A DNA stretch of 64,000 nucleotides, from positions 176,886,001-176,950,000 of the forward strand of contig NC_091474.1 in assembly GCF_036971445.1 (NCBI RefSeq). Direction: 5' to 3'. The notes below the pieces were generated by a model, which saw only the letters and a list, made by a program, of their open reading frames with translations, ran no database searches and was not told where the DNA came from. Shown one piece after another: positions 3,592 to 55,753 of this stretch. Every line of letters begins with the position of its first letter. Position 1 is the stretch's first letter. The translations under genes and the position numbers were made by a program. The DNA comes from Narcine bancroftii. Lineage: Eukaryota.

Positions 3592-4712
3592 TGTTACGAA
3601 CTAACAATCTTTTAATTATTTTTGGGAATAAAGAGACTGTTCTAGCACTAACACAGGAACAGGAATGGAAAATTCACCAGGCAATGGTAAATTCAAAATA
3701 ATAGTTTTTATTAAATTTTCAACAACATAACATTTCTTACTTATCTCTAAACTTACTTAACCCTGCACTATGTGTAAATGGAAATCTGTGTATAATTAAA
3801 GTCCCACTCTGAAAAGTTATTCTTTAAATGTTCAGCAATAATTTTAGACTTGCTTGAAGGTCTTAAATTCTCAGTACAGAAATAATTATAAAGTGATTTT
3901 AAACATATATTTGGGCCTTTTTACTCACAATGTGACTATTTTCATCCACAATGAATTCACAATCCCAGACAAGGGTTAAACCAATGTGGTTATTTTCTTC
4001 CATGATTAAGTCACAAACCATACAAGAGTGAAATGAAGTGACCAAACACAATAATAGACCCGGTAGAAATCTGTCCTCTTTTCAAAGAGATAGCAAAATG
4101 GTCTTTATTTCAAAGGCCACTGATTCTGTGTTCCCCCTTTCCCAGGAGTAACACACAACAACAGCACCAATTCTGGTTACTGTAACTCAACTCTGTCTTT
4201 CATAGGAGTTTTGACTTATGTATTCTCCAAACTGAATTCAGAATGCTGAATTCGGTCATATATTTCTCCAAATCATGTGATCATTACATCATCACTGAAG
4301 GTGAGTCCCAATTCTTTGGAAACCACATGACCCTCAGTTTTATTTCTACCAAATTTCTGTTCCATTTTCAAAACCATCACATATCTATTGCAATCTTTGA
4401 CCTCATCTCTGTTCAAGAGGCCTGACTGGCTTTGATTAAAAACAGATGGCTTCCTCGGCAGTTCCTGAATAATTAAGACCCACACAATCCATTAGCTCTG
4501 TCTCTCCCAGACACGTCAACTCCAAGAACGAGCACTCTTCTCAAAAAAAGATTCTCTATAAATGCGCTGTGACCTGTGTGTGACCTTGTACCAACCCACA
4601 GCTGACTTACTAAGACTGCAGATACAATATTTTAACTTGATACTTTACTAAGACATTTTATAAAAGAAATATAGTTTAATATTAAATTAAAGGTTACCAC
4701 AAATCTGTTACA
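3592..4712 (-). mobile_element. Possible solo LTR (~1.1 kb)
   Basis: Starts tgttacg and ends ctgttaca; tttatt (minus-strand polyA signal) near the left end; no matching TSD found. Confidence 0.35.
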
Positions 4713-6279
4713 GCAAAGTTTAGGGGTGAACAAGTATTTCTGACATCAATATGAAATAGATTGCAGGCTTGTGCAGTGAATACTGCCTCCCTGCTTTTAA
4801 ATAGCCTACTTTGCAACCAGGCTTCACAAAATGCTAATCAGGCTCAGTGGGGTTTCCAGGGGTGGGAGAGGATTTCTTCATGAATTTCTCCTCCTTTTTT
4901 TGGGTTATAACTTCTTGCTCTTCTCATGCCAGGAGATTGCATAGTGTGAGCTGAGGGAATAATGTCCGTATTAAGATGAAGACATCAAAAGTGACTGGGT
5001 CAGGCTGGATGATTCAGAGGGCAATTTTCTATAGGTGCTGAAGATTTCAGCAGGTTCAGGACAAACATGTGCTTGCATAATAGGAATGGTCACCAGAAAT
5101 ACAAAAGGATAAAAGGTAAGCTTTATAAAATTGAAATGATTCATGGCATCCTGTAATTGTTAAATGATATTGTGTAATGTCTCCAATCGATGTTGGGATG
5201 TTTTCATACATGAAATATGTGTGGCCTGGAATAAGTCAGGCCATTATGATTTGCTTTGAAAATGCATAAAACTCAAATGTGTAATTATTGGATTTTCGCC
5301 AACCTTTCCATTGACCTGTTCTTCAGCTGGTGTGATTGCAGTAGCTCCATAAGATGAGACCTCGTTTGCAATCATGGAGTCATTAATTTCTTGCTGTATT
5401 ATCTCCTGACATTAGGTTCCTGATTTTAATGGGACCATATTGGGAAGAGAGATGGATCGGTTGTAAACAAAGATCAGCTTACATTTTAAAATCAAAAATG
5501 ATGGGTAACAAGATCTCCTCCACAATTATTCTCAACTCAAGGATGTGTATTCATTCCCCTATTAGACTCCTTGTACAATTACAACCATGCAGATAAATAC
5601 TGTTCCAACTCATTCTTTAAATTTGAGTTGGAGTACTGGAAAAAGTTTCAAAGTCTAGTGGCATAGTGCCAAGGTTACAACTACTTTCTCAATGTTAATA
5701 AGACAAAGAAGATGATCATTGACTTCAGGAGAGAGGGCAGAGTCCACACCCCTGTCAGCATTGATGGCACCGAAGTTAAGAGTGTAGGTAGCTTGATGTA
5801 GTTCAGGATAAGTGCCACTATTCCTCAACAGCTTCTACAAGTGCATCATCTAAAGCATAATTACAGGATGCATCACAGTGTAGTGTGAGCTCTGCTCAAG
5901 ATCAGAGAAGCTGAAGAATATAGTGAATGCAGCTCAGAACACAAGTTAATCTTCCTTCCCTCCTTGGACTCCATCTTCTGCTGCCAAGAAAAGGAGGCCA
6001 ATATACCAAAAAAAAAACATGCTGCATACGCTCTTTTCTCCCACCTTCCATCTGGGAGAAGGCTCGAGTATGAAATTGTGCACTGATAGGCTTAAAGATA
6101 GTCATAGGCATATCTAGGGTGTGGCAGCCATGCCACCTGCCCTGGTGGTGACTTGAAGGGGGGGGGGGGCACCACTGTCCTTGCCCACCAAACCTCATAA
6201 GAGTTTTAAAACAAGCTCTTTATGCTATTTAGGACAAGGAATGCATATTGAGTTCTCCCAGCCTAGGTGCTTGCCATAT

Positions 6280-6832
6280 TCTTGGCCCTATTTGGCCGGT
6301 TCATTGTTGAACTGGGAGAGGTAACCCGCCCTGAACACAATGTTGTAATGGAGTAATGGAACAGTTTATCTTGCCACTGTCCACTGTCAGGTGAAGTATC
6401 ACTTTCTGCAGATTCATCATCATGGTTTGGGTCAAGTCCGCCAACCCATCCCCTATTAGGTATTTATTACTCAGTACCGCTAGCAACTTGGGGTCTTTCT
6501 CCAGGGTGAGATATCTGAACACCCTCATCACCAACTCCACTGCAAACTTCCCAAAGTCGAGCCTGGACCTGGACGCCTTCATTACAGCTCCATAGGACAG
6601 CAGGTCCATCAAGAAAGTGATGTAAAAACCACCTACCTGGGCTGTGAATATGTCCCCATGCTTTTTATGTATCTCCTGCAGGAACTGCAGCACATTCCTT
6701 TGGAAGAACAGGATGTGGACGAGCCATAGTAGGTAACTCATTCAGTGTCTGTCTCCTCAAAGTACCCAAGAAGTAAAGGAGGATGACGAGAAGCTTTGTC
6801 GGACTCAGTAGAACAGACGTCGCATAAGCCAT
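6280..6832 (-). pseudogene. CYP8B1: CYP8B1-like (sterol 12-alpha-hydroxylase) 5' fragment, frameshifted and 3'-truncated
   Basis: ATG at 6832 followed by a hydrophobic anchor and LYFLGTLRRQTLNE; after a frameshift WLVHILFFQRNVLQFLQEIHKKHGDIFTAQVGGFYITFLMD...RLDFGKFAVELVMRVF...SNKYLIGDGLADLTQTMMMNL; after another shift YNIVFRAGYLSQFNNEP*. Collinear with the CYP8B1 N-terminus and intronless like CYP8B1 (CYP7A1 and PTGIS have introns here). No I-helix, ExxR or heme motif. Confidence 0.85.
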
Positions 6833-6879
6833 GACCTTGAAAAAGATTCTTCTCGCAAACCAGTGCCCAAGCTTCCGAG

Positions 6880-7000
6880 ACTTTAATGTGTGAGCATTGT
6901 TAACCTTGGTCAATCAGCTCCAGTTAATCACCCCTGGTTAATTTGGTTGCACTTAGTGGAACTGTATTACAGCATCAGCTCTGTATGTAAGGACTTTGTA
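6880..7000 (-). promoter_or_regulatory. Putative hepatic proximal promoter of the CYP8B1-like fragment
   Basis: Minus-strand CCAAGGTTA (6901-6909, LRH-1/NR5A2-like), CAAAGTCC (6991-6998, HNF4 core) and two GTTAAT half-sites (HNF1-like, ~6922-6942), all within 170 bp upstream of the ATG. Confidence 0.5.
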
Positions 7001-7220
7001 AGCTGTCCCTCCTACCATTTTGCAAATAAATTAATTGCCAAAATGATGTAAAAGGCCACACATTTGAAAGGGTTAGCTTGGCATCTTAAAGGTTCTCTCT
7101 TAACTTTAGCCGCTCCACTCCGGGGAATGTTGCTTGCTGAATGCTGGCCTTTGAAATAGGCAGAGGGTTTTTTTATTTGAAATGACTGTTGTATTCTGTC
7201 ATCTTTTTTAAGGCATAGAT

Positions 7221-7577
7221 CAGTGGTTCTCAACCTTTTTCTTTCCACTCACATACACTTTAAGTAATCCCTACTTCATCAGTCTCTGTGATTAGTAAGG
7301 GATTGCTTAAGGTGGTATGAGGGTGGGAAGGGAAGTTTGAGAATCACTGCTTTAGACCCAATTGTTATGAAGTATTTTGCTTGAGAAAAATTGTCATTGG
7401 CCCATTTCCTTTGGAGTTATGAAACCATGCACATAACAGCACAATTAGGTATGATTAAAACATTTTCTTTCCACTCACATACCACCATAAGCAATCCCTT
7501 ACTAATCACAGAGCTCTGGTGGCATAGAGAATATTTAAAGTGGTATGTAGTGGAAAGAAAAAGGTTGAAAACCACTG
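7221..7577. mobile_element. hAT-Charlie-like MITE made of two palindromic subunits, nested in the cargo
   Basis: TIRs cagtggttctcaacc / ggttgaaaaccactg; 8-bp TSD gcatagat / gtgtagat (both derivable from gcgtagat by CpG decay); internal TIR copy gtttgagaatcactg at ~7335-7349. Confidence 0.85.
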
Positions 7578-8071
7578 GTGTAGATTATTTTCCATTATCT
7601 CATATATCCTACACTACGTTGGATATGACTATTTTATAGTTCTACAGTGGTGAGGATAGGTAGGGACAGCGAAGTGGATGGTGTGGTGGCAGCAAGGGAT
7701 GGTTGCTCAGTGAAGGCAGGTTTGAAGTAAGTTTTAATGGGGGTGGGGGAAGGCACAATTTCAGTGCTCGCCATAGGTGCTATTTTCCATCGATATGCCA
7801 CTGAAGACAATGTGTTCCCTGCAGCCATCACAGTCCAGAATGAACCTCATATCAGTGCTAACACGCTGCACTTGCTTGCTGCTAATTTATTTTCCTTTAC
7901 ATCGTAAACTCTGTAAATTGTGCTTTTACACTCCTGTATGAATGTTAGAGATAATTTGTTGTGTTCACAGGTAAAAATTCCTTTTCACTGTATGAAATAT
8001 TTTGTGACAAATAAACAAATTAAAACAGAAAATGATGAAAACACTCAACAAGTTTAGCAGCATCTGTAGAA

Positions 8072-8950
8072 CAATAATTCAGAAGCCTCATGGCTTGGGA
8101 GAAAAAACTGTTTTGCAATCTGGTCATGAGGGCCTGAATGCTTCAGTACCTCTTCCCAATTGGCAGGAGGGAGAGCAGATTGTGGGAGGGGTGGATGGAG
8201 ACTTCACAATGTTTATGGCTTTCTGCAAACAGCGGACTTTATATAGTCTATCATGGCAGGAAGAGAGACGCCAATAATCCCTTCAGCAGTGTTTACCATA
8301 TGCTGCAAGGACGTCCATTCTGGGATGTGCAGTTCCCGAACCATGCACTGATGCAGTTAGGTAGGTTGCCCTAATGCATCCCCTGTAGAATGTAATGAGG
8401 GTGGAGTGTGGAAGCTGGACTTCCCTCAACCTCTGCAGGGAGTAAAGGGATTGTTGGGCCTTCTTGGCAATGGATCTGGTGCTCAAGGAATTTGGTGCTC
8501 TTGACTACCTCCTCGGTAGAGCCATCGATTGTCAATGGAGAGTGATCCCCCTGTGCTCTTCTGAAATCAACCACCATCTCCTTTGTTTTGTTGATGTTCA
8601 GGTGCAGGTTGTAGTCTCTGCCCCAGTCCATTAGTGTTTGCGCCTCCTCTCTGTAAGTTGACTCATCATTCTTGCTAATGAGCCCCACCATGATCATGTC
8701 GTCTGCAGACTTGATGATGTGATTAGAACTGTATCTCACTGCACAGTCAGTGGGCATAGCACACAGCCCTGGGGGTCCCCCTATGCTCAGTGTGATGGAC
8801 ATGCTGTTTCTGATCTGAACTGATTGAGGTCTTCCAGTCAGGAAGTCGAGGATCCAGTTACAGGTGTTTAGCCACAGCAGGTTCAGCTTCCTAATCACGT
8901 GCTGCAGTATGTTTGTGTTGAATGCTGAGATGAAGTCTACGAATAGCATT
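8072..8950 (-). mobile_element. Rex1/Babar LINE RT fragment
   Basis: [50 protein letters not shown]. Confidence 0.85.
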
Positions 8951-9450: not shown

Positions 9451-11339
9451 TACAGACTTAGTTGCTTATGCTGTGCTTTCAAAAAAACAATTGCAATTCA
9501 GTACAACGTACAACTGTAACTATGTGCAGATTCAAGGACGAGGACCAAGGGACAGTTTCTCCCCCAAAGCAGCTTAAGTATGCAGAAACTAAACTTAATA
9601 AACTTGAATTGATATTTTCCCAGCAATTTTTATAATTTATTTATGACAGTGGAATTTGTAGCTTTGCATCCACCATGGGAAGAGTTGACTCTAAAGCAGT
9701 GTGGCTCAATTTTGTCTGGAAAGGTGTCAACATTTTACAAAGATTAATAAGAAATCAAGAACAGTTTATCAAATAGCAGCATGTACTATGAAGTTTGTGA
9801 ATAACATTATAATGTACCAAAATTGGAATACAATTGTTTGCTGGTTAAAATTTAGAGGAAAGAATAACATGTTTCAGATTCTCTCTCTTTTCATTTAAAT
9901 CTCCAATGGTAGCACAGAAGTGAGGTTCCAGTCTGAGCTAAGATAAAGAAAGAGTACTGGGGGAGGGTGGGTGTAAATTGGGCGGATTGGGCTCTGAGGC
10001 CAAAATGGCCTGTTACTATGTTGTATTTCTAAATTAAAAAAAAAATCCTTATTCAGATTGACATCAGGATTCAGGACCCACACAATTTGAACAGCATTGA
10101 TAACAACACAATTAACCCCATCACCTGTAGATTTTCTGTTTAATCATCTCAAGCTCATGAGTTTCATTAGTACTATCCAAGCATCTTGACAGTCCATGCG
10201 TGCAATCTCTTCAGGTGGCAGTGGAGGGATGAAGGAGGCAGCCAGTAGAGTCACTGACTGACAACGCCAGAGATCAGCTGACGCTGCGTATTACCTTTGG
10301 AGGATTTACCACGTTGAGACACTCCACTTTCCTCTCACATTTCCAATGATTTGTGAATGTTAGCTTAACAGACTGCTGTAAATTTCCCCTAATGTTTAGA
10401 TGAGTGGGAGAAGCTGGGCCGGAATTGATGAGAATGTGGAGAGAATTTAAAAAAAAAATGGGATTAATGTAAAGCTGGTGTGAATGGGTTTGCAACCATC
10501 AAAAAATGTTTGATGTGGATTCAGAGGGCCAGTTTCCATCATGTACTTCTCTATTATTCGATAAAGTAGTGTAATTGGAAGTAAAAGGTTTAAAAAGTCG
10601 ATTTTGTGATATGAAACAGCACTTGTTAAAATAATTTCCAGACGGACAATTTGTGGTTTAATTTTATATTGCCTCTAGTTTCTATTTATTTGGTGTTGAA
10701 GGGCAGTATAATACTTCCTCAAAGAGAATATGAAATATCCTGCAAATTTGAGTAATTGGCAATTGCAACCAAAGGAATGGGTTTTACATGTTATTATGGT
10801 CTCTGGAGATATGGGACATTATTCTTGCTGAAAATATTTGTGGACGATATCCTGTTCATCTCCACATGGTTCTGGCAATGCTGTCCTATTTTACGTCCTT
10901 TTACACCTCCACACCCTTGTCACAAACACACAATTAATAAACTCCACCTTTTTCCATTTTCATCTGCTAATTAAATGGGGACTCACTTCCAAAATGAAAA
11001 ATGTTACAGCATCCAGATGATCAGAATAATTTTTTTTTTTTGTTTTGCAGCATGCATAACAGAGCTTTCCTCCCCTCCTACAGGCCTTCAAATCAAGGCT
11101 TTTCATTTAGAAATGGTATGTTCATTGAGGTGTGCATCACGCATACAATGCACAGAGGAGTATACAGGGGTCACTTGGTCTCGCATTCTGTGTGAGTGCC
11201 AAGTACACTTGCCTTCCTGATGGCATTGGTGTCTCTACAGCAACACCCTTTTGATTAATTTGTGCATCCTGTCCTGTACTGAAGGAACTTGTCCAATTCT
11301 CCTCTATTGTGTTTAAGCCTGATTTATTTCAGAATCATG

Positions 11340-11745: not shown

Positions 11746-12610
11746 GGTAGCATGGAAATGGGAGATTCCCACTTTTGCAATGGACAAAGCAACAGAGCCA
11801 AAGGAAGTGATATTCCAGTCTGAATACAGCCTCACTGATGCAGATGACATCACAATGCAGCATTGATTCATTTGGAAGTATCGTTTGGGGTCCTGAATAG
11901 TGGTGAGGGACGAGGTGTAGCATTTCTTGTGGTCACAGGGGTAGGTGCCAAAGGGGTGATTGGTGAGAAGGGAAGAGTGGAAGTAGGAGTAACAGAGGGG
12001 CTGGTCCCTGCAGAAGGCAGAGACAGGAGGACAGGGGCATATCTAGGGTATGGCAGGCATGGCATGGGCCCGGGGCACCACTTGAAAAGGGGGACATTGC
12101 TTGAATGGGGGTTGCCACTTGACATCTGCCACCCCCCACCCACCCACCCTTCTCAGCACCGCCGCCTCCAAACTGGACATACAAGGAACACACACCTGTT
12201 CGGTACACTCATCCTCCTTCCTCATCTTAGCGTTCGCTCTCAATTATACAACATGGCAGCCACCAAGCCAGCTCTCATGAGACCTCATTGTCGCTGTGTA
12301 TTTTGATGCAATGGCCACCCTTGTCATAGGCACTACTTTATGTAGATACACCCCTGGGGGAGGAGAAGTGGCATGTGTCTGGTGGTGGAATCATGTAGCA
12401 GAGAGCAGAAATGGCAGAGGATGATATGTTGGATGCATTGGCTATTGGGGTGGTAAGTGAGGGCAAGGGGAATCCTGTCCTGGTTGCTCATGGGGATGGA
12501 GGGGGCCTGGACAAGTGAGGGGGTAATGGAAGACATGCAGGTGAGGGCTGCATTGATAATAGTGAAAGGGAAGCTACACTTTTGAAGAAGGAGGACATCT
12601 CAGATGATCT
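11745..12610 (-). mobile_element. Penelope-like element fragment (RT linker to GIY-YIG), interrupted by a hAT MITE
   Basis: QDRIPLALTYHPNSQCIQHIILCHFCSLLHDSTTRHM is the typical PLE linker; a decayed downstream region contains GP..F..TC. Confidence 0.7.
12032..12356. mobile_element. hAT MITE, short cargo-free relative of the 6103-7803 element
   Basis: TIRs caggggcatatcta / tagatacacccctg; 8-bp TSD caggagga / ggggagga. Confidence 0.85.
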
Positions 12611-20139: not shown

Positions 20140-21066
20140 CAGCACCCTCTATAATGTTTGGGACAAACATTTATTTTCCTTTATTTGTCCCTGTGCTCCG
20201 CAGTTTTCAATTTGTAACAAAACAATTCACATGTGATTAAGGTGAACATTCCAGATTTTATTCAAGATTATTTGGATACATTTTGGTTTGACCTTGTAGA
20301 AATTACAGCACTTTGTAAACATAGTAAAAACACAATACTAGAGAAACTCAACCGGTTAAACAGTGTTCTTTATATAGCAAAGAACACTGTTTGACCTGCT
20401 GAGTTTTTCCAGCATTGTGCATTTATTTCAACTATGGTTTCTGCAGACTTTCAAAGAATCTCAAAGAAGCAATTCTGAGGCTGAAAAAGAAGAATCAAAC
20501 ACTAAGAGACATTACCCAAAGCTTACGGTTACCAAAATCAACAGTTTGGAACATCATTGAGAAGAAAGAGGGTATTGGTGAGCTCAGTGATCACAAAGGG
20601 ACGGGAATTCCAAGGAAGATCTCCACTGCTGATGACAGAAGAATTCTCATCATAATGAAGACAAATCCCCAAACGCCTGTCCGACAGATCAGAGACACTC
20701 TTCAGGAGGCAGGAGTGGATGTGTCAGTGACCACTGTCCACAGAAGACTTCATGAACAGAAATACAGAGGTTACACTGCAAGATGAAAACCATGAGTTGG
20801 CCACAGAAACAGATTGTAGTTTGGCAAAAAAAAATATTTAAAAAAGCCAGTAGAATTCTGGAAAAAGGTCTGGTGAACAGATGCGATCAAGATGAACCTA
20901 TATCAGAGTGATGGCAAGAGCAAAGTGTGGAGGCTTAAAGGAACTGCCAAAGATCAAAAGTCTACCACCTCTTCTGTGAGACATGGTGCGATGGCCTGTA
21001 CATGTATAGTTGCCAGAGGTACTGGCACACTTATCTTCAATGATGAGGTAACTGCCGATGGCAGTA
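20140..21066 (+). mobile_element. Tc1-like DNA transposon: left TIR and 3'-truncated transposase pseudogene
   Basis: TA|cagcaccctctataatgtttgggaca TIR; paired-like HTH LPKSTVWNII, GIPRKIS (GRPR-like), VSVTTVHRRLHE, FWKKVW*TD, MNLYQSDGKSKVWR; stops; the rest of the DDE domain and right TIR are missing; a short hairpin element is inserted at ~20325-20445. Confidence 0.9.
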
Positions 21067-49300: not shown

Positions 49301-52300
49301 TAACTGTCAGCTCAAAGGTTCTTCCTTGTAAGATAGTTTCAAGGACACCGTGCATAGGAGATGTGTGAATTTGGTGGTTGATTGTCTCATGACTAAGTAC
49401 CAATTTTTACCCATTATTTTAGAGATCCAATAACAACTAAATTTATCCTTGCTTTTAAGAGCCTTGTTATAGACAATTCCGCTGGCCTGGTGTTAAGGTT
49501 CTATTTTTTGATTTGGGTTTCCCTAGTTTATCTGAATTTTTTTTATTTGAAATGGAATACTTATGCAATGCAACTTAAAGGCTGAAATACCAACAAATCA
49601 TAAAATTATGTATAATTCTACATTCAGGAACATAAAACATTAATATCCCAAAATGAACAATGGTAAACTCTTTGTTAGTCATAATTAATAGCAAAGTAGT
49701 ACTTTCATTTTGAGTTAATAATCACGTAAACTTGCCTGACATTGATTTGAAGATGGAAGCCCTTCAATTACTTGGATAAAAACTAAGATATTGTCATCAG
49801 AATGCTGGCGAGGAAAGATAAACCCATTAAATGTCCCTAAACAGTTTTAAGAGGATATGTATAAGAGAGGGATGATAATAAGGATGTTGTACCATGGTGT
49901 TTAGCAGATATTGAAAGGCTCAATTGTCAAATAGAGAAAAGCAAAAACTGCAGATGCTGGAATGTTGAGCAGACAAATGTTGGAGAAATTCAATATCAGA
50001 TAGCATCCTTGGGTAGAAATGGTCAGTGAATACATGGAAAAGTGTTACTTAAATCTTCGGCCATTGATGGGTCAGTGATGAAACTTCGGCGAGGCACCTT
50101 TGACGGGTCAGCTAGAGCAGTAGTGAGGCCCAGTGGGAGCAGTGGTGGGAGCTGGACTTGGCGAGGTGAGGTCTGGCAGGAGCAGTGGCGTGGTGCCGGA
50201 CTCGGTGAGGTGAGGCCCGTGGGAATAGTGGTGAGGAGCACAACCCAGACGTCGTGAAGTCCAGTGGGAGCAGCGGCAAAGGGAAGTTCCATTTTTGATT
50301 TTTGATATTTAAACAATTAGAATAAGAATTAGAATTACCATTGCTGGTAATTTCATTATTTCCAGGAGCTCTGCTTGATTCCCATTAGGGAGCTGGGAAG
50401 GAATTTCTCAAAGTTTTCCCTGAAATTGGCCACAGGTTTTTTTTTGCCTCTTCCAGGAGTCATATTACCAGCATATTAGGGCAGAGAGTGGTAGTAATGC
50501 AAAAGGAACAGTGGAGATAAATAGAGAGAAATTAGGCCATTTCAGGTGAACCCTCGACCTTGAGGCCAGCGATTGGTGAGACTTGGTTGCAGGAGGGGTA
50601 GGGCTGGCAGTTCAATGTTCTAGGGTTCTCTTGTTTCAGGCATGATAGAGGGTATGAAACTGGGAGGAGTGGCATTGCTAGTCAGGGAAAATGTCACAGC
50701 TGTGCTCAGACAGTACAGCTCAGAGGCCATATGTGTGGAGCTGAGGAATGGGAAAAGTGTGACCATACTGATAGGGTTATATTATTTACTGCCCAATATT
50801 CAGAGCAAATTGGAGGAGCAAATCTGCATAGAGATAGCAGACCAATGTAATAAACAAAAAGTTGCGATAGTATGAGATTTTAAACTTTCCATGTATTGAC
50901 TGGGACTCCCATACTGTAAAAGGACTGGATGGCTTGGAGTTTGTCATTTGTGTTCAGGGATGTTTTCTAAATCAGTATATAGAGAGGATGCAATACTTGA
51001 TCTCCTATTAGGGAACCAGACTAGTCAGGTGTGGTTATACAACCATCAGGTGACAGAAGTATGGGTAGGTGAACATTTTGGGTTCAGTGATGATAATTTC
51101 ATTAGTTTCAAGTTAATTATGGACAAGAATAGGTCTGGTCTTCGATTTGAGATTCTAAATTGGAGAAAGGCTAATTTTGTGGAAATGAGAAAGGATCAAG
51201 GAGGAGTGAATTGGGATGAGTTGTTTTCTGGCGAAGATGTGCTTAGTAAGTGGAAGGCCTTCAAAGGCAAAAATATGAGAAAGCAGCGTTTGAATGATCC
51301 TGTCAGGATTAAAGGCAAAATTAACAGGCATAGGGAATCTTGGTTTTGAAGTGATATTGGTGATCTGGTGAAGACGAAGAGAGAGGTGTATAGCAGGTAT
51401 AGGCAACAAGGAGCAAATGAGGTACTAAAAGAATCTAGAAAATTTAAGAAAATACTTAAGAAGGAAATCAGGAAAGCAAAAAGAAGACATGAGGTTGCTT
51501 TGGCAGATAATGTGAAGGTAAACCCAAAGGGTTTCCACAAGCATGTTAAGAGTTAAAAGATAGTTTTAAAAAGTTGAAGACAGCTTTGAAGCAGAGAGAT
51601 TTTTGTCTTTTAATCAAATGAAAGAGAAGTTTCAAATCCCTTCGAATACTTTTCTCTTATTATCAGTTTAAAAATTTTTTATCGGAACAATTAGATCACA
51701 GTTTAAAATTACCTAGGCAGTCTTCTTTGGAATTATTACTTACTAAGGATGATTCAAGTACATTTATTTCTGAGATGTATAAGTTATTACAAAATAAAAT
51801 GCCAAATTAGATGTTCATAAATCAAGAGTGAAATGGGAATTGGATTTGAATTGAAAGTTTTTGGAGAAATTTGGATAGTATAACTCAGGTTATAAATGTA
51901 TGTTATAGATTGGTGCAGTATAATTTCTTACATCAATTGTATTTAACCTCTCAGTAATTGAAAAAAAAATTAACTTAGTTCTTCAGATTTGTGTTTTAAG
52001 TGTGGTCAAGAAATAGGTACTTTTTTTCATTCGACTTGGACTTGCCTCAAAGTTAAAAGTTTTTGATTACAAATTAAATTGTTTTTAGAACAGGTATTAA
52101 AAGTGAATTTACCTTTTGATCCATTTTTGTTTTTAGGATTGACATTGACTATGTATCAAATTGAATTTTTACATTTGGTTTTGGCTGTTTCTAAAAAAGA
52201 ATGTTTTAACTATTACATGGAAGTCTGATTTTGTTTTAAGCATGAAAAGATGCATAATGAAATGAAAGCTTGTGTTCCTTTAGAAAAAATTACATAGAAT

Positions 52301-52596
52301 TTGAAAGATAAATACTTTGTCTTTATTAAAATATGGATCCCATATTTTAAAGTTATTGGTATTAAAATTTGATCTCTTGATCTGCTTCAGTGGATGTCAC
52401 CACTTCCGCAGCCACGAAGTTTGAATATGATTGTATTCGCTGATGACCTCCTTTTTCTTTCTTTTGTAGGTGGGTGAGGAAGGAGGGAAGGTATTAGTGG
52501 GGTGGTTGGGGAGGTTGTTCTTTTTAATATATCTAATCACATCATGTACTGTAATCAATGTTATGTTAAGTGATTTCAAATTTTAAATAAAATATT

Positions 52597-54463
52597 CTTT
52601 CTTTGGCTTGGCTTCGCGGACGAAGATTTATGGAGGGGGTAAAAAGTCCACGACAGCTGCAGGCTCGTTTGTGGCTGACAAGTCCGATGCGGGACAGGCA
52701 GACACGATTGCAGCGGTTGCAGGGGAAAATTGGTTGGTTGGGGTTGGGTGTTGGGTTTTTCCTCCTTTGCCTTTTGTCAGTGAGGTGGGCTCTGCGGTCT
52801 TCTTCAAAGGAGGTTGCTGCCCGCCAAACTGTGAGGCGCCAAGATGCACGGTTTGAGGCGTTATCAGCCCACTGGCGGTGGTCAATGTGGCAGGCACCAA
52901 GAGATTTCTTTAGGCAGTCCTTGTACCTTTTCTTTGGTGCACCTCTGTCACGGTGGCCAGTGGAGAGCTCGCCATATAACACGATCTTGGGAAGGCGATG
53001 GTCCTCCATTCTGGAGACGTGACCCATCCAGCGCAGCTGGATCTTCAGCAGCGTGGACTCGATGCTGTCGACCTCTGCCATCTCGAGTACTTCGACGTTA
53101 GGGGTGTAAGCGCTCCAATAGATGTTGAGGATGGAGCGGAGACAACGCTGGTGGAAGCGTTCTAGGAGCTGTAGGTGGTGCCGGTAGAGGACCCATGATT
53201 CGGAGCCGAACAGGAGTGTGGGTATGACAACGGCTCTGTATACGCTTATCTTTGTGAGGTTTTTCAGTTGGTTGTTTTTCCAGACTCTTTTGTGTAGTCT
53301 TCCAAAGGCGCTATTTGCCTTGGCGAGTCTGTTGTCTATCTCATTGTCGATCCTTGCATCTGATGAAATGGTGCAGCCGAGATAGGTAAACTGGTTGACC
53401 GTTTTGAGTTTTGTGTGCCCGATGGAGATGTTGGGGGGCTGGTAATCATGGTGGGGAGCTGGCTGATGGAGGACCTCAGTTTTCTTCAGGCTGACTTCCA
53501 GGCCAAACATTTTGGCAGTTTCCGCAAAGCAGGACGTCAAGCGCTGAAGAGCTGGCTCTGAATGGGCAACTAAAGCGGCATCGTCTGCAAAGAGTAGTTC
53601 ACGGACAAGTTTCTCTTGTGTCTTGGTGTGAGCTTGCAGGCGCCTCAGATTGAAGAGACTGCCATCCGTGCGGTACCGGATGTAAACAGCGTCTTCATTG
53701 TTGGGGTCTTTCATGGCTTGGTTCAGCATCATGCTGAAGAAGATTGAAAAGAGGGTTGGTGCGAGAACACAGCCTTGCTTCACGCCATTGTTAATGGAGA
53801 AGGGTTCAGAGAGCTCATTGCTGTATCTGACCCGACCTTGTTGGTTTTCATGCAGTTGGATAATCATGTTGAGGAACTTTGGGGGACATCCGATGAGCTC
53901 TAGTATTTGCCAAAGCCCTTTCCTGCTCACGGTGTCGAAGGCTTTGGTGAGGTCAACAAAGGTGATGTAGAGTCCTTTGTTTTGTTCTCTGCACTTTTCT
54001 TGGAGCTGTCTGAGGGCAAAGACCATGTCAGTAGTTCCTCTGTTTGCGCGAAAGCCGCACTGTGATTCTGGGAGAATATTCTCGGCGACACTAGGTATTA
54101 TTCTATTTAGTAGAATCCTAGCGAAGATTTTGCCTGCAATGGAGAGCAACGTGATTCCCCTGTAGTTTGAGCAGTCTGATTTCTCGCCTTTGTGTTTGTA
54201 CAGGGTGATGATGGTGGCATCACGAAGATCCTGAGGCAGTTTACCTTGATCCCAACAAAGCTTGAAAAACTCATGCAGTTTGGCATGCAGAGTTTTGCCG
54301 CCAGCCTTCCAGACTTCTGGGGGGATTCCATCCATACCTGCTGCTTTGCCACTTTTCAGTTGTTCGATTGCCTTATATGTCTCATCCAGGGTGGGAACCT
54401 CATCCAGCTCTAGCCTTAGGGGCTGTTGAGGGAGCTGGAGCAGGGCGGAATCTTGGATCCAAG
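52597..54463 (-). mobile_element. Young RTE copy 3 (1.87 kb, 5'-truncated) inserted in the L1 tail
   Basis: Perfect 11-bp TSD aataaaatatt (52586-52596 / 54464-54474); tail ctttctttggcttggc. Confidence 0.95.
52653..54458 (-). CDS. RTE reverse transcriptase, uninterrupted ~600-codon frame, lacking the endonuclease and start codon
   Basis: GKAAGMDGIPPE, NYRGITLL, QCGFR, FVDLTKAFD, GVKQGCVLAP, LFADD, FTYLG and a C-terminal CxxC..H..C; the native TGA is TGT in this copy. Confidence 0.9.
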
Positions 54464-55753
54464 AATAAAATATTAAACAAAGAGTAAAAGGATAGTAAAG
54501 GACAAAATTGGTCCCCTGGCAGATCAGAGTAGTCATTATGTGTGGAGCCTCGAGATGGGGGAAGATCTTGAACAGTTTTTATTTTGCATCAACATTTACT
54601 CAGGAAACTAGCATAATATATAAGGAAGAAAGGTAAACAAGCAGTAGTTGCATGGAACATATAGTGATAAAAGAGGAGGAAGTGCTTGCTGTTTTAAAGC
54701 AAATAAGGGTGGATATTCCCTTAGAGCTTGAGGTAGACTAGTGTAGAAATTGCAGGGTCCCTTGCAGAAATATTTTAATTGTCCTGAGCTGTGGGTGAGA
54801 TGCCTGAGGATCTGAGGGTAGCTCATGTTGTTCTGTTGTTTTAAAAAAAAGGCTCCAAAAATAAACTAGAAAATTATAGGCTGGTGACCCTGTCATCAGT
54901 AGTAGGTAAATTATTGAAGGATGTCCTGAAATATCGGATTTACAAGTATTTGGACAACCAAGGGCTGATTAAGGATAGTCAACATGGATTCGTGTGTTGT
55001 AGGCCGTGTTTAACAAATCTTATAGTTTTTTTTCAGGAAGTTACCAAGAAAGTAGATGAAGAAAAGTCTGTGGATGTTTTGTCGAGGTGGACTTTAATAA
55101 GCCCTTTGACGAGGTCTCACATGGGAGGTTAGTTCAGAAGGTTCAGACACTAATTATCAATGGAGAAGTTGTAAACTGGATATGAAATTGGCTTAATGGG
55201 GGAAGACAGAGTGGTAGTATGATTGCTTCTCAGACTGGAGGATTAGTGATGTACTTCAGGATTCAGTGTTGGGAGCATTTTTTTTTGTTGTCTATATCAA
55301 TGATTTGGATGATAATGTGGTAAACTGAATCAGCAAGTTTGCTGATGACACTAAGACTGGAGGTGTGGTGGACATTAAAGAAGCTGTCAAAGCTTGCAGA
55401 GGGATCTGGGCCAGCTTAAAAATGGGCAAGTGAATGGCAGATGGAATTTAATGCAGACAAGTGTGAAGTATTGCATTTTGGAAGGACAAACCAAAGTAGG
55501 ACATACAGAGTAAATGGTAGGGCGCTGAGGAATGTGGAGGAACAAAGGGGTCTGAGAATGCAGATACATAATTCTCTGAAAGTGGTGTCACAGGTAGACA
55601 GGGTTGTAAAGAAAGCTTTTGGCATCTTGGCCTTCATAAATCAAAGTTTATATTTTCAATACTTTTATTGGATTTTGAAGAAATACTACATAAATAGAGC
55701 CATTAATTCAAGGTAATATATATATTAAAAAAATACACACAAAAAAAGTTATA

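What the first reader, a model, noticed from the sequence alone, without database searches (positions are those of the whole stretch)
6095..7811. Pack-hAT candidate: a DNA transposon enclosing the promoter and 5' CDS of CYP8B1
Seen: a Rex1 LINE is cleanly interrupted by 1.7 kb bounded by hAT-type TIRs and an 8-bp TSD (aagatagt/aagacaat, two transitions). Both ends match the 325-bp MITE at 12032-12356. Between them lie ~190 codons of a CYP8B1-like P450 and ~800 bp of apparent upstream sequence. Known: hAT transposases make 8-bp TSDs; gene-fragment capture (Pack-MULE/Pack-TIR) is well documented in plants and less so in vertebrates; CYP8B1 performs the 12-alpha-hydroxylation also seen in the elasmobranch bile alcohol scymnol. 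Inference: this is transduplication of a bile-salt gene's 5' end. A cargo that keeps the 5' end and promoter but lacks the 3' end and poly(A) argues against a processed pseudogene.
Basis: partly seen in the sequence, partly recalled or inferred. Interest (0 to 1): 0.9.

Follow-up and report, generated by a model that had tools for sequence, protein, structure and literature searches.

The report
Ray transposon family carrying gene starts
This is an old cut-and-paste transposon in an electric ray genome that holds a broken copy of the front end of a bile-salt gene (CYP8B1), found at four unrelated sites; it likely copied the piece once and then jumped with it, and dozens of sister elements carry the first exon of a second gene, a plant-like scale of gene capture rarely reported for this transposon class in vertebrates.

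Summary
Real, and larger than reported. 6103-7803 is a non-autonomous hAT-type element with an 8-bp target duplication; 12 of 14 LINE copies align straight across the empty site. It carries CYP8B1 codons 1-~198 plus ~240 bp upstream, antisense and broken. Two intact parent genes lie on another contig. The same transposon-cargo junction occurs at four unrelated sites, so one capture followed by transposition is the best reading. The family has 642 candidate loci, and 39 loci carry exon 1 of GSG1L, some with part of intron 1, which shows DNA-level capture. Corrections: the '800 bp upstream' is mostly transposon arm plus a nested 357-bp MITE; a promoter is not shown; the 12032 MITE is a different family. 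One run guessed to be RNA has a contig ending exactly at a splice donor unique to this copy (6637): a hint only. Animal Pack-TIRs are known, but Tan 2021 found 4 multicopy cases among 281 and none in the one cartilaginous fish surveyed. The scan noted Pack-hAT elements before on other DNA. No transposase partner found; no cross-species check possible.

The parts
5690..6094 (+).
   Evidence: 997 candidates genome-wide; contiguous with 7812 onward in 12 of 14 copies
6095..6102 (+). Left target-site duplication AAGATAGT
6103..6249 (+). Left arm of the hAT-type element; 17-bp terminal inverted repeat at 6103-6119
   Evidence: shared with cargo-free family members; column counts over 40 elements
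6250..6832 (-). Captured CYP8B1 coding fragment, codons 1 to about 198; three frameshifting indels and one stop; junction microhomology GAGT at 6250-6253
   Evidence: 77% to parent L002; PF00067 E 9e-4; junction
6628..6639 (-). Splice-donor-like site CAG|GTAGGT (last exon base 6637), absent from the parents and from sister copies L003 and L006
   Evidence: only minus-strand donor of 10.2 bits or more in 5700-8200, 1 of 10 in the window; contig of run X5 ends here
6833..7074 (-). Captured CYP8B1 upstream DNA (5' UTR and/or proximal regulatory region), 242 bp, possibly to 7099
   Evidence: BLAST to L002 and L008; alignment
7100..7212 (+). Right arm of the element, first part
   Evidence: matches family members
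7213..7585 (.). Nested, unrelated MITE (7221-7577, ends CAGTGGTTCTCAACC) with its own 8-bp duplication at 7213-7220 and 7578-7585; inserted later, absent from sister copies
7586..7803 (+). Right arm of the element, ending in the 17-bp inverted repeat at 7787-7803
   Evidence: 642 candidates genome-wide, 40 scored
7804..7811 (+). Right target-site duplication AAGACAAT
7812..7900 (+). Continuation of the interrupted LINE (right edge approximate)

Best explanation
The element is a non-coding hAT-type transposon with an 8-bp target duplication that holds a broken copy of the 5' end of CYP8B1; it likely copied this piece once, by a template switch during DNA repair inside one family member, and was then likely moved with its cargo to at least four sites by a transposase supplied from elsewhere. 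SHOWN: termini, duplication, interrupted LINE, two intact parents on contig C1, one left junction shared by four sites with unrelated flanks, decay of the copies, and sister elements with the same arms carrying GSG1L exon 1 and intron DNA. INFERRED: template switching (short microhomology at the junctions), a single founder, cut-and-paste spread, capture in the electric-ray lineage before the parent gene duplicated, and later insertion of the nested MITE. The family behaves as a modular carrier: constant arms, exchangeable interior. The CYP8B1 piece cannot give an active P450 (under 40% of the protein, frameshifted).
For: All CYP8B1-like DNA found in the genome: two intact genes (C1:482.14 and 482.25 Mb) and five fragments, all ending near the same codon (13 of 13 candidates scored). 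Two of the five are a 99.97% identical tandem pair, so four sites. All four join the family's left arm to CYP8B1 at the same base, TGCACGTTGAGT|GTTC. Microhomology GAGT with today's parent; 6 bp if the parent then encoded His there as in Pristis (inferred). Flanks are unrelated to each other and to the parent (only 43- and 67-bp repeat-like hits); no family arm within about 10 kb of the parents. Tree: copies group with the two Narcine parents (SH-aLRT 93.7 / UFBoot 96) to the exclusion of Pristis, Mobula, Hemitrygon and Leucoraja, outside the parent pair (100/100). Copies differ evenly across codon positions (window vs L003 0.19/0.20/0.23), as for unselected DNA. Second cargo: 39 non-parent loci match GSG1L exon 1; 28 of 30 inspected carry family arms, 21 both; distinct 8-bp duplications; parent L095 is intact and 100% identical to a named GSG1L; 9 copies run on into intron 1 to a common junction with about 4 bp microhomology (a tenth, L091, shows the same junction); 0 of 30 keep an intact frame.
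Against: A readable target duplication exists for only 1 of the 4 CYP8B1 sites: L006 has a damaged left tip (5 of 8 at best, by eye), L003/L004 lack both tips, L007 lacks its right half and the missing ends were not within 10-20 kb. The right junction is not shared: the window keeps 242 bp upstream, L003 and L006 about 95 bp followed by a palindromic module, which needs later deletion or exchange. Support for the copies as one clade is moderate (76.6/82). No transposase-bearing partner was found in 30 hAT loci (993 candidates exist). Microhomology length was not tested against chance. A 98-bp match to the family's minisatellite module lies 1.3 kb upstream of the GSG1L parent.
Confidence: 0.8

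Rival explanations
1. One capture, but the cargo spread by ectopic gene conversion or template switching between elements already in place, not by cut-and-paste of the loaded element.
For: The right junction differs between the window copy and L003/L006, and the palindromic module next to their cargo is also seen in GSG1L-type members, so exchange among family members happened. Only one CYP8B1 site keeps a clear duplication.
Against: Arms and cargo are about equally diverged among the copies (arms 76%; cargo 76-80%). The GSG1L cargo sits at 39 loci with many distinct duplications, which is simpler by transposition.
Confidence: 0.1
2. The capture step used RNA or cDNA of CYP8B1 as the template; the loaded element then transposed.
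For: CYP8B1 is intronless here, so spliced and genomic templates look alike, and the 242 bp upstream may be all 5' UTR (start site unknown).
Against: No poly(A), no duplication around the cargo, and the 3' end is the missing part. The sister cargo GSG1L runs through the exon 1 donor into intron 1, so this family takes genomic DNA.
Confidence: 0.06
3. Independent gap-filling captures of CYP8B1 at each site, without transposition (the usual route for single-copy animal Pack-TIRs).
For: Tan 2021 finds this route for most animal cases (PMC8277862, sections read). One site is 14 Mb from the parents on the same contig.
Against: Four sites on three contigs share one junction to the base; the search found no CYP8B1 fragment from the 3' two thirds of the gene.
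Confidence: 0.03
4. Ordinary segmental duplication or a decayed native CYP8B1 locus with transposon pieces beside it by chance.
For: One pair of copies (L003/L004) is indeed a recent tandem or assembly duplicate.
Against: Similarity to the parent ends inside the arms; flanks unrelated; LINE contiguous across the empty site.
Confidence: 0.01

Closest known systems
Multicopy animal Pack-TIRs, e.g. Pack-hAT-N8_XT of Xenopus tropicalis (Tan et al. 2021, PMC8277862; read: abstract, sections 7-10 and 14, two supplement look-ups)
   Same: Non-autonomous hAT with host DNA between its arms, parent far away, several insertion sites, microhomology at junctions, GC-rich source; proposed route is template switching then transposition.
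   Different: Their multicopy cases are 4 of 281 and the worked example has three copies of a 291-bp 5' UTR piece. Here the cargo is about 825 bp of coding plus upstream DNA, the same family carries a second gene at 39 loci, and the copies are old (72-80% to parent), below that survey's 90% filter. Elephant shark, the only cartilaginous fish in its table, had 0.
Plant Pack-TYPE elements including maize Pack-hAT (PMC8903248; read: start of abstract and 4 passages); rice Pack-MULEs (as cited in the papers above)
   Same: Non-autonomous TIR families with constant ends and varied gene cargo, amplified by transposition.
   Different: Host is a vertebrate; only two cargos have a proven parent gene here, against hundreds in plants.
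Bat Helitrons (Helibat) carrying gene 5' ends (Thomas et al. 2014, PMC4224331; read: 12 passages)
   Same: Vertebrate DNA transposons that amplified promoter, 5' UTR, first exon and first intron pieces to many copies, with sequential capture.
   Different: Helitrons are rolling-circle elements without these inverted repeats or 8-bp duplications (general knowledge); copy numbers there reach thousands.
Processed pseudogene
   Same: Broken, intronless, dispersed gene copy.
   Different: Keeps the 5' end and lacks the 3' end, has no poly(A), and is bounded by transposon arms.

Membership tests
hAT superfamily (non-autonomous) | 8-bp target-site duplication | tested here: met
   peak at 8 bp only; 22 of 40 at 6/8 or better against 0.9%
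hAT superfamily (non-autonomous) | Short terminal inverted repeats | tested here: met
   17-bp imperfect repeat, conserved over 40 elements
hAT superfamily (non-autonomous) | An autonomous hAT with the same ends | tested here: inconclusive
   none among 30 fetched PF05699 loci of 150 matches and 993 candidates; only the end near the domain was visible
hAT superfamily (non-autonomous) | Subterminal transposase-binding repeats | not tested
   no call
Pack-TIR (Tan 2021) | Both ends from one element, interior of 100-5000 bp | tested here: met
Pack-TIR (Tan 2021) | Identifiable parent without the element at its flanks | tested here: met
   CYP8B1 parents L002/L005, no family arm within about 10 kb; GSG1L parent L095
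Pack-TIR (Tan 2021) | Not a retroduplicate | tested here: inconclusive
   untestable by introns for CYP8B1; met for GSG1L, whose cargo includes intron 1
Multicopy Pack-TIR | Same chimeric junction at several sites with distinct target duplications | tested here: met
   CYP8B1: same left junction at 4 sites with unrelated flanks, duplication readable at 1; GSG1L: distinct duplications at many sites
Young Pack-TIR list of Tan 2021 (pipeline filter, not a biological feature) | 90% or more identity to the parent | tested here: not met
   72-80%; such elements fell outside that survey
Processed pseudogene | Gene 3' end with poly(A) and its own duplication | tested here: not met
Rex1 LINE (flank) | Reverse-transcriptase phylogeny in the Rex1/Babar clade | not tested
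   label recalled from a motif in the translation

The most novel reading that the evidence does not exclude
The family is a shuttle for gene starts in the electric ray genome, and this copy has come alive: it is transcribed on the CYP8B1 strand, driven by the captured CYP8B1 upstream DNA, and spliced from a donor site that arose after insertion (6637) into exons elsewhere, giving a new chimeric transcript. Several unassigned modules of the family would be further captured first exons and promoters.
Probability: 0.25. Interest if true: 0.75.

Novelty: new variant of a known kind. Interest (0 to 1): 0.55.

Why it matters
Multicopy gene capture by cut-and-paste transposons is common in plants but was reported as rare in animal reference genomes (4 of 281 cases), by a survey limited to young copies. 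This family shows an old vertebrate hAT lineage that loaded the 5' ends of at least two genes and spread one to dozens of sites, so the rarity may partly reflect the age filter. Both captured parent segments are CpG-rich gene starts (CpG observed/expected 0.83), echoing the 5' bias of bat Helitrons. The copies also keep ancestral CYP8B1 residues that the ray's own gene has since changed, and they will mislead annotation (about 40 false GSG1L-like hits). If the splice hint holds, it is a testable case of a captured gene start founding a new transcript.

Tried and rejected
Transposase partner: PF05699 search and inspection of 30 loci found no shared arms; one similar end (L206) belongs to a neighbouring repeat, since its relatives stop earlier. 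Parent of interior module C (67 candidates): 29 of 30 fetched loci show a left arm and the remaining one (L115) a right arm; no Pfam match of note among the stop-free frames of the unassigned modules; profile search gave one weak hit to a repetitive protein, taken as chance; a second frame gave none; a third frame was not searched by alignment. Parent of module D (613 candidates): the 8 top loci fetched all carry the adjoining family arm. Parent of module E (21 candidates): none clear. Parent of module H (129 candidates): none identified among 30. Host gene in the window: predicted exons gave no Pfam match. Cross-species orthologous site: no relatives are held for this genome; four laid runs gave no piece spanning the site. 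No RNA holder listed: no run is on record as RNA; X5 is a guess, and two runs of the same study hold next to none of the words, which is no evidence either way; the zero depth at 6204-6623 in X5 is not used as evidence. A 7-bp microhomology at the GSG1L junction written in my notebook was wrong; one search shows about 4 bp. An HNF4-like motif (CAAAGTCC, recalled) is identical in parent and copy, but a 15-bp identical run is not unusual at this identity; two paper searches gave no passage that I read to confirm it. Missing ends of L003/L004 and L007 were not found nearby.

Full report
Observation. The window is G000:C15:176886001-176950000. The element spans 6103-7803, between AAGATAGT and AAGACAAT. 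Removing it in a script restores the LINE: 12 of 14 other copies align across the junction, and their sequence there points to an original target AAGACAGT, each duplicate having taken one transition. The right arm has 642 candidates in the genome. Among 106 loci examined, 40 had both tips recognisable; their flanks match at length 8 only (0.70 against 0.22-0.37), and 22 of 40 match at 6 of 8 or better against 0.9% in shuffles. This is the hAT signature (established knowledge). The transposase partner was not found.

Anatomy. Left arm 6103-6249; CYP8B1 antisense from 6250 to the ATG at 6832; upstream DNA to 7074, at most 7099; right arm 7100-7803, interrupted by a nested MITE at 7221-7577 with its own duplication. 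Without the MITE and one of its duplications the element is 1336 bp, close to the 1339 bp of sister copy L006. The 325-bp MITE at 12032 shares only the tips and belongs to another family.

Parent and copies. A search with the intact gene returned two complete CYP8B1 genes on C1 and five fragments, with all 13 candidates scored. The parent protein is 100% identical to a record named Narcine bancroftii CYP8B1. Two fragments are a near-identical tandem pair (99.97%), leaving four sites: the window, C1:468.2 Mb, C8:370.8 Mb and C8:307.05 Mb. All join the left arm to CYP8B1 at the same base, with GAGT shared between arm and parent. Their flanks are unrelated. Against this: a clear duplication survives only at the window site; the others have damaged or missing ends, and the right junction differs between the window copy and L003/L006. 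In a protein tree the three longer copies (L007 left out as too short, L004 as a duplicate) group with the Narcine parents (93.7/96), outside the parent pair, with moderate support as one clade (76.6/82). Capture therefore most likely happened in the electric-ray lineage before the parent duplicated (inference). The window copy has three frameshifting indels and a stop, and copies differ evenly over codon positions.

The family is modular. Mapping 51 complete elements (of 96 loci) gave constant arms with exchangeable interiors. One interior is exon 1 of GSG1L: 39 non-parent loci match (40 of 62 candidates scored), 28 of 30 inspected carry family arms, and the intact parent is L095 on C24 (PF07803; 100% identical to a named GSG1L). 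Nine of the 51 continue through the exon 1 donor into about 560 bp of intron 1; in the parent a simple-repeat tract of about 2 kb now splits that stretch. This shows genomic, unspliced capture. None of 30 keeps an intact frame; mismatches to the parent pile up at third positions (0.11/0.10/0.25) more than between copies (0.15/0.15/0.20). Both captured parent segments are CpG-rich (observed/expected 0.83). Other interiors (C, D, E, F) have no identified parent (F was not searched on its own); they may be native transposon DNA or older cargo.

Mechanism. Best reading: a break or gap inside a family member was repaired by switching onto the CYP8B1 5' region at a short microhomology; the loaded element was then mobilised in trans; copies decayed, one took a nested MITE, others lost or swapped parts of the interior. 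This matches the route proposed for multicopy animal Pack-TIRs (PMC8277862, section read). Spread by conversion between resident elements, an RNA template, independent filling and segmental duplication are less likely, for the reasons given under rivals.

Expression hint. No run is on record as RNA. Run X5, guessed to be RNA, has a 605-nt contig at 6637-7243 with one letter different. It ends exactly at CAG|GTAGGT on the minus strand, the only donor of that strength in 5700-8200 and one of 10 in the window; the parents and copies L003 and L006 lack it. Depth is 221.8 at 6649-6658 and 33.7 at 6667, with window-type letters; by my hand calculation from the bin mean (96.7) the extra contigs cover about 30 nt, the overlap expected of junction contigs. 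This fits splicing, but rests on one run of uncertain kind, no joint or loose end at 6637 was among the rows shown, and the downstream exon is unknown. It is a lead, not a result.

Novelty. Tan 2021 lists 370 animal Pack-TIRs, 208 of them hAT, with four multicopy cases, a 90% identity filter, and none in elephant shark. Bat Helitrons amplified gene 5' ends to thousands of copies. Seven literature searches (listings only, open-access library) showed no report of this family or of Pack-TIRs in sharks and rays; repeat databases were not available, so the family may be catalogued there. Earlier notes of this scan describe Pack-hAT or Pack-TIR elements in other genomes; I did not check them. Verdict: a well-supported multicopy Pack-hAT, known in kind, unusual for a vertebrate in scale and in carrying more than one gene; interest 0.55.

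Noticed in passing
L222, L229, L233, L237 (G000, several contigs): A second hAT-like family (ends CAGTGGCGGATTA, 8-bp duplications, 129 candidates) has in some members taken up the right half of this family, inverted repeat included. Its interior looks promoter-like by eye (two CCAAT boxes, a GT donor; motifs recalled). Parent not found.
   Followed up: partly
L047:1205-1400 and most family members: Module D reads like a short signal-peptide exon ending in AAAG|GTAAGA; it may be an older captured first exon carried by about 600 copies. Parent not found.
   Followed up: partly
L117:1040-1375; L191: Module E (about 350 bp, 21 candidates) is a further exchangeable interior; L191 is an unusually CpG-rich, armless-on-the-left relative.
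   Followed up: partly
L002 and L005 (C1:482.14 and 482.25 Mb): The two intact CYP8B1 genes are an inverted pair 110 kb apart, 97.5% alike over 200 codons, with differences 4/9/2 at codon positions 1/2/3, an excess of amino-acid changes. The second has an insertion of about 3.9 kb with retrotransposon-like frames (by eye) about 80 bp upstream of its ATG.
   Followed up: no
L003/L004, L163/L165 (C1:468.19-468.23 Mb): A 29-kb-spaced tandem duplicate at 99.97-99.99% identity; very recent or an assembly duplicate.
   Followed up: partly
window 7579-7706 and 6379-6726, runs X6, X8, X9: Runs of three other coded organisms hold pieces like the family's right arm; two hold pieces about 85-87% like the CYP8B1 cargo, closer than the ray's own parent is. 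These may be their own genes or their own loaded elements.
   Followed up: no
window 4206-4300, 11051-11115, 50457-50545 (+): Exon-like stretches with strong splice signals; possibly a plus-strand host gene, which would place the element in an intron with its cargo antisense. No Pfam match.
   Followed up: partly
window 12032-12356: 325-bp MITE with similar tips, member of a separate family of 761 candidates.
   Followed up: yes
window 26648-26783: Second copy of the nested MITE family.
   Followed up: no
window 52566-54578 (-), 33236-37309 (+), 20403-20786 (+): A 670-codon open reverse-transcriptase-like frame, a broken LTR-retrotransposon-like region (both by eye) and a Tc1-type transposase remnant.
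   Followed up: no
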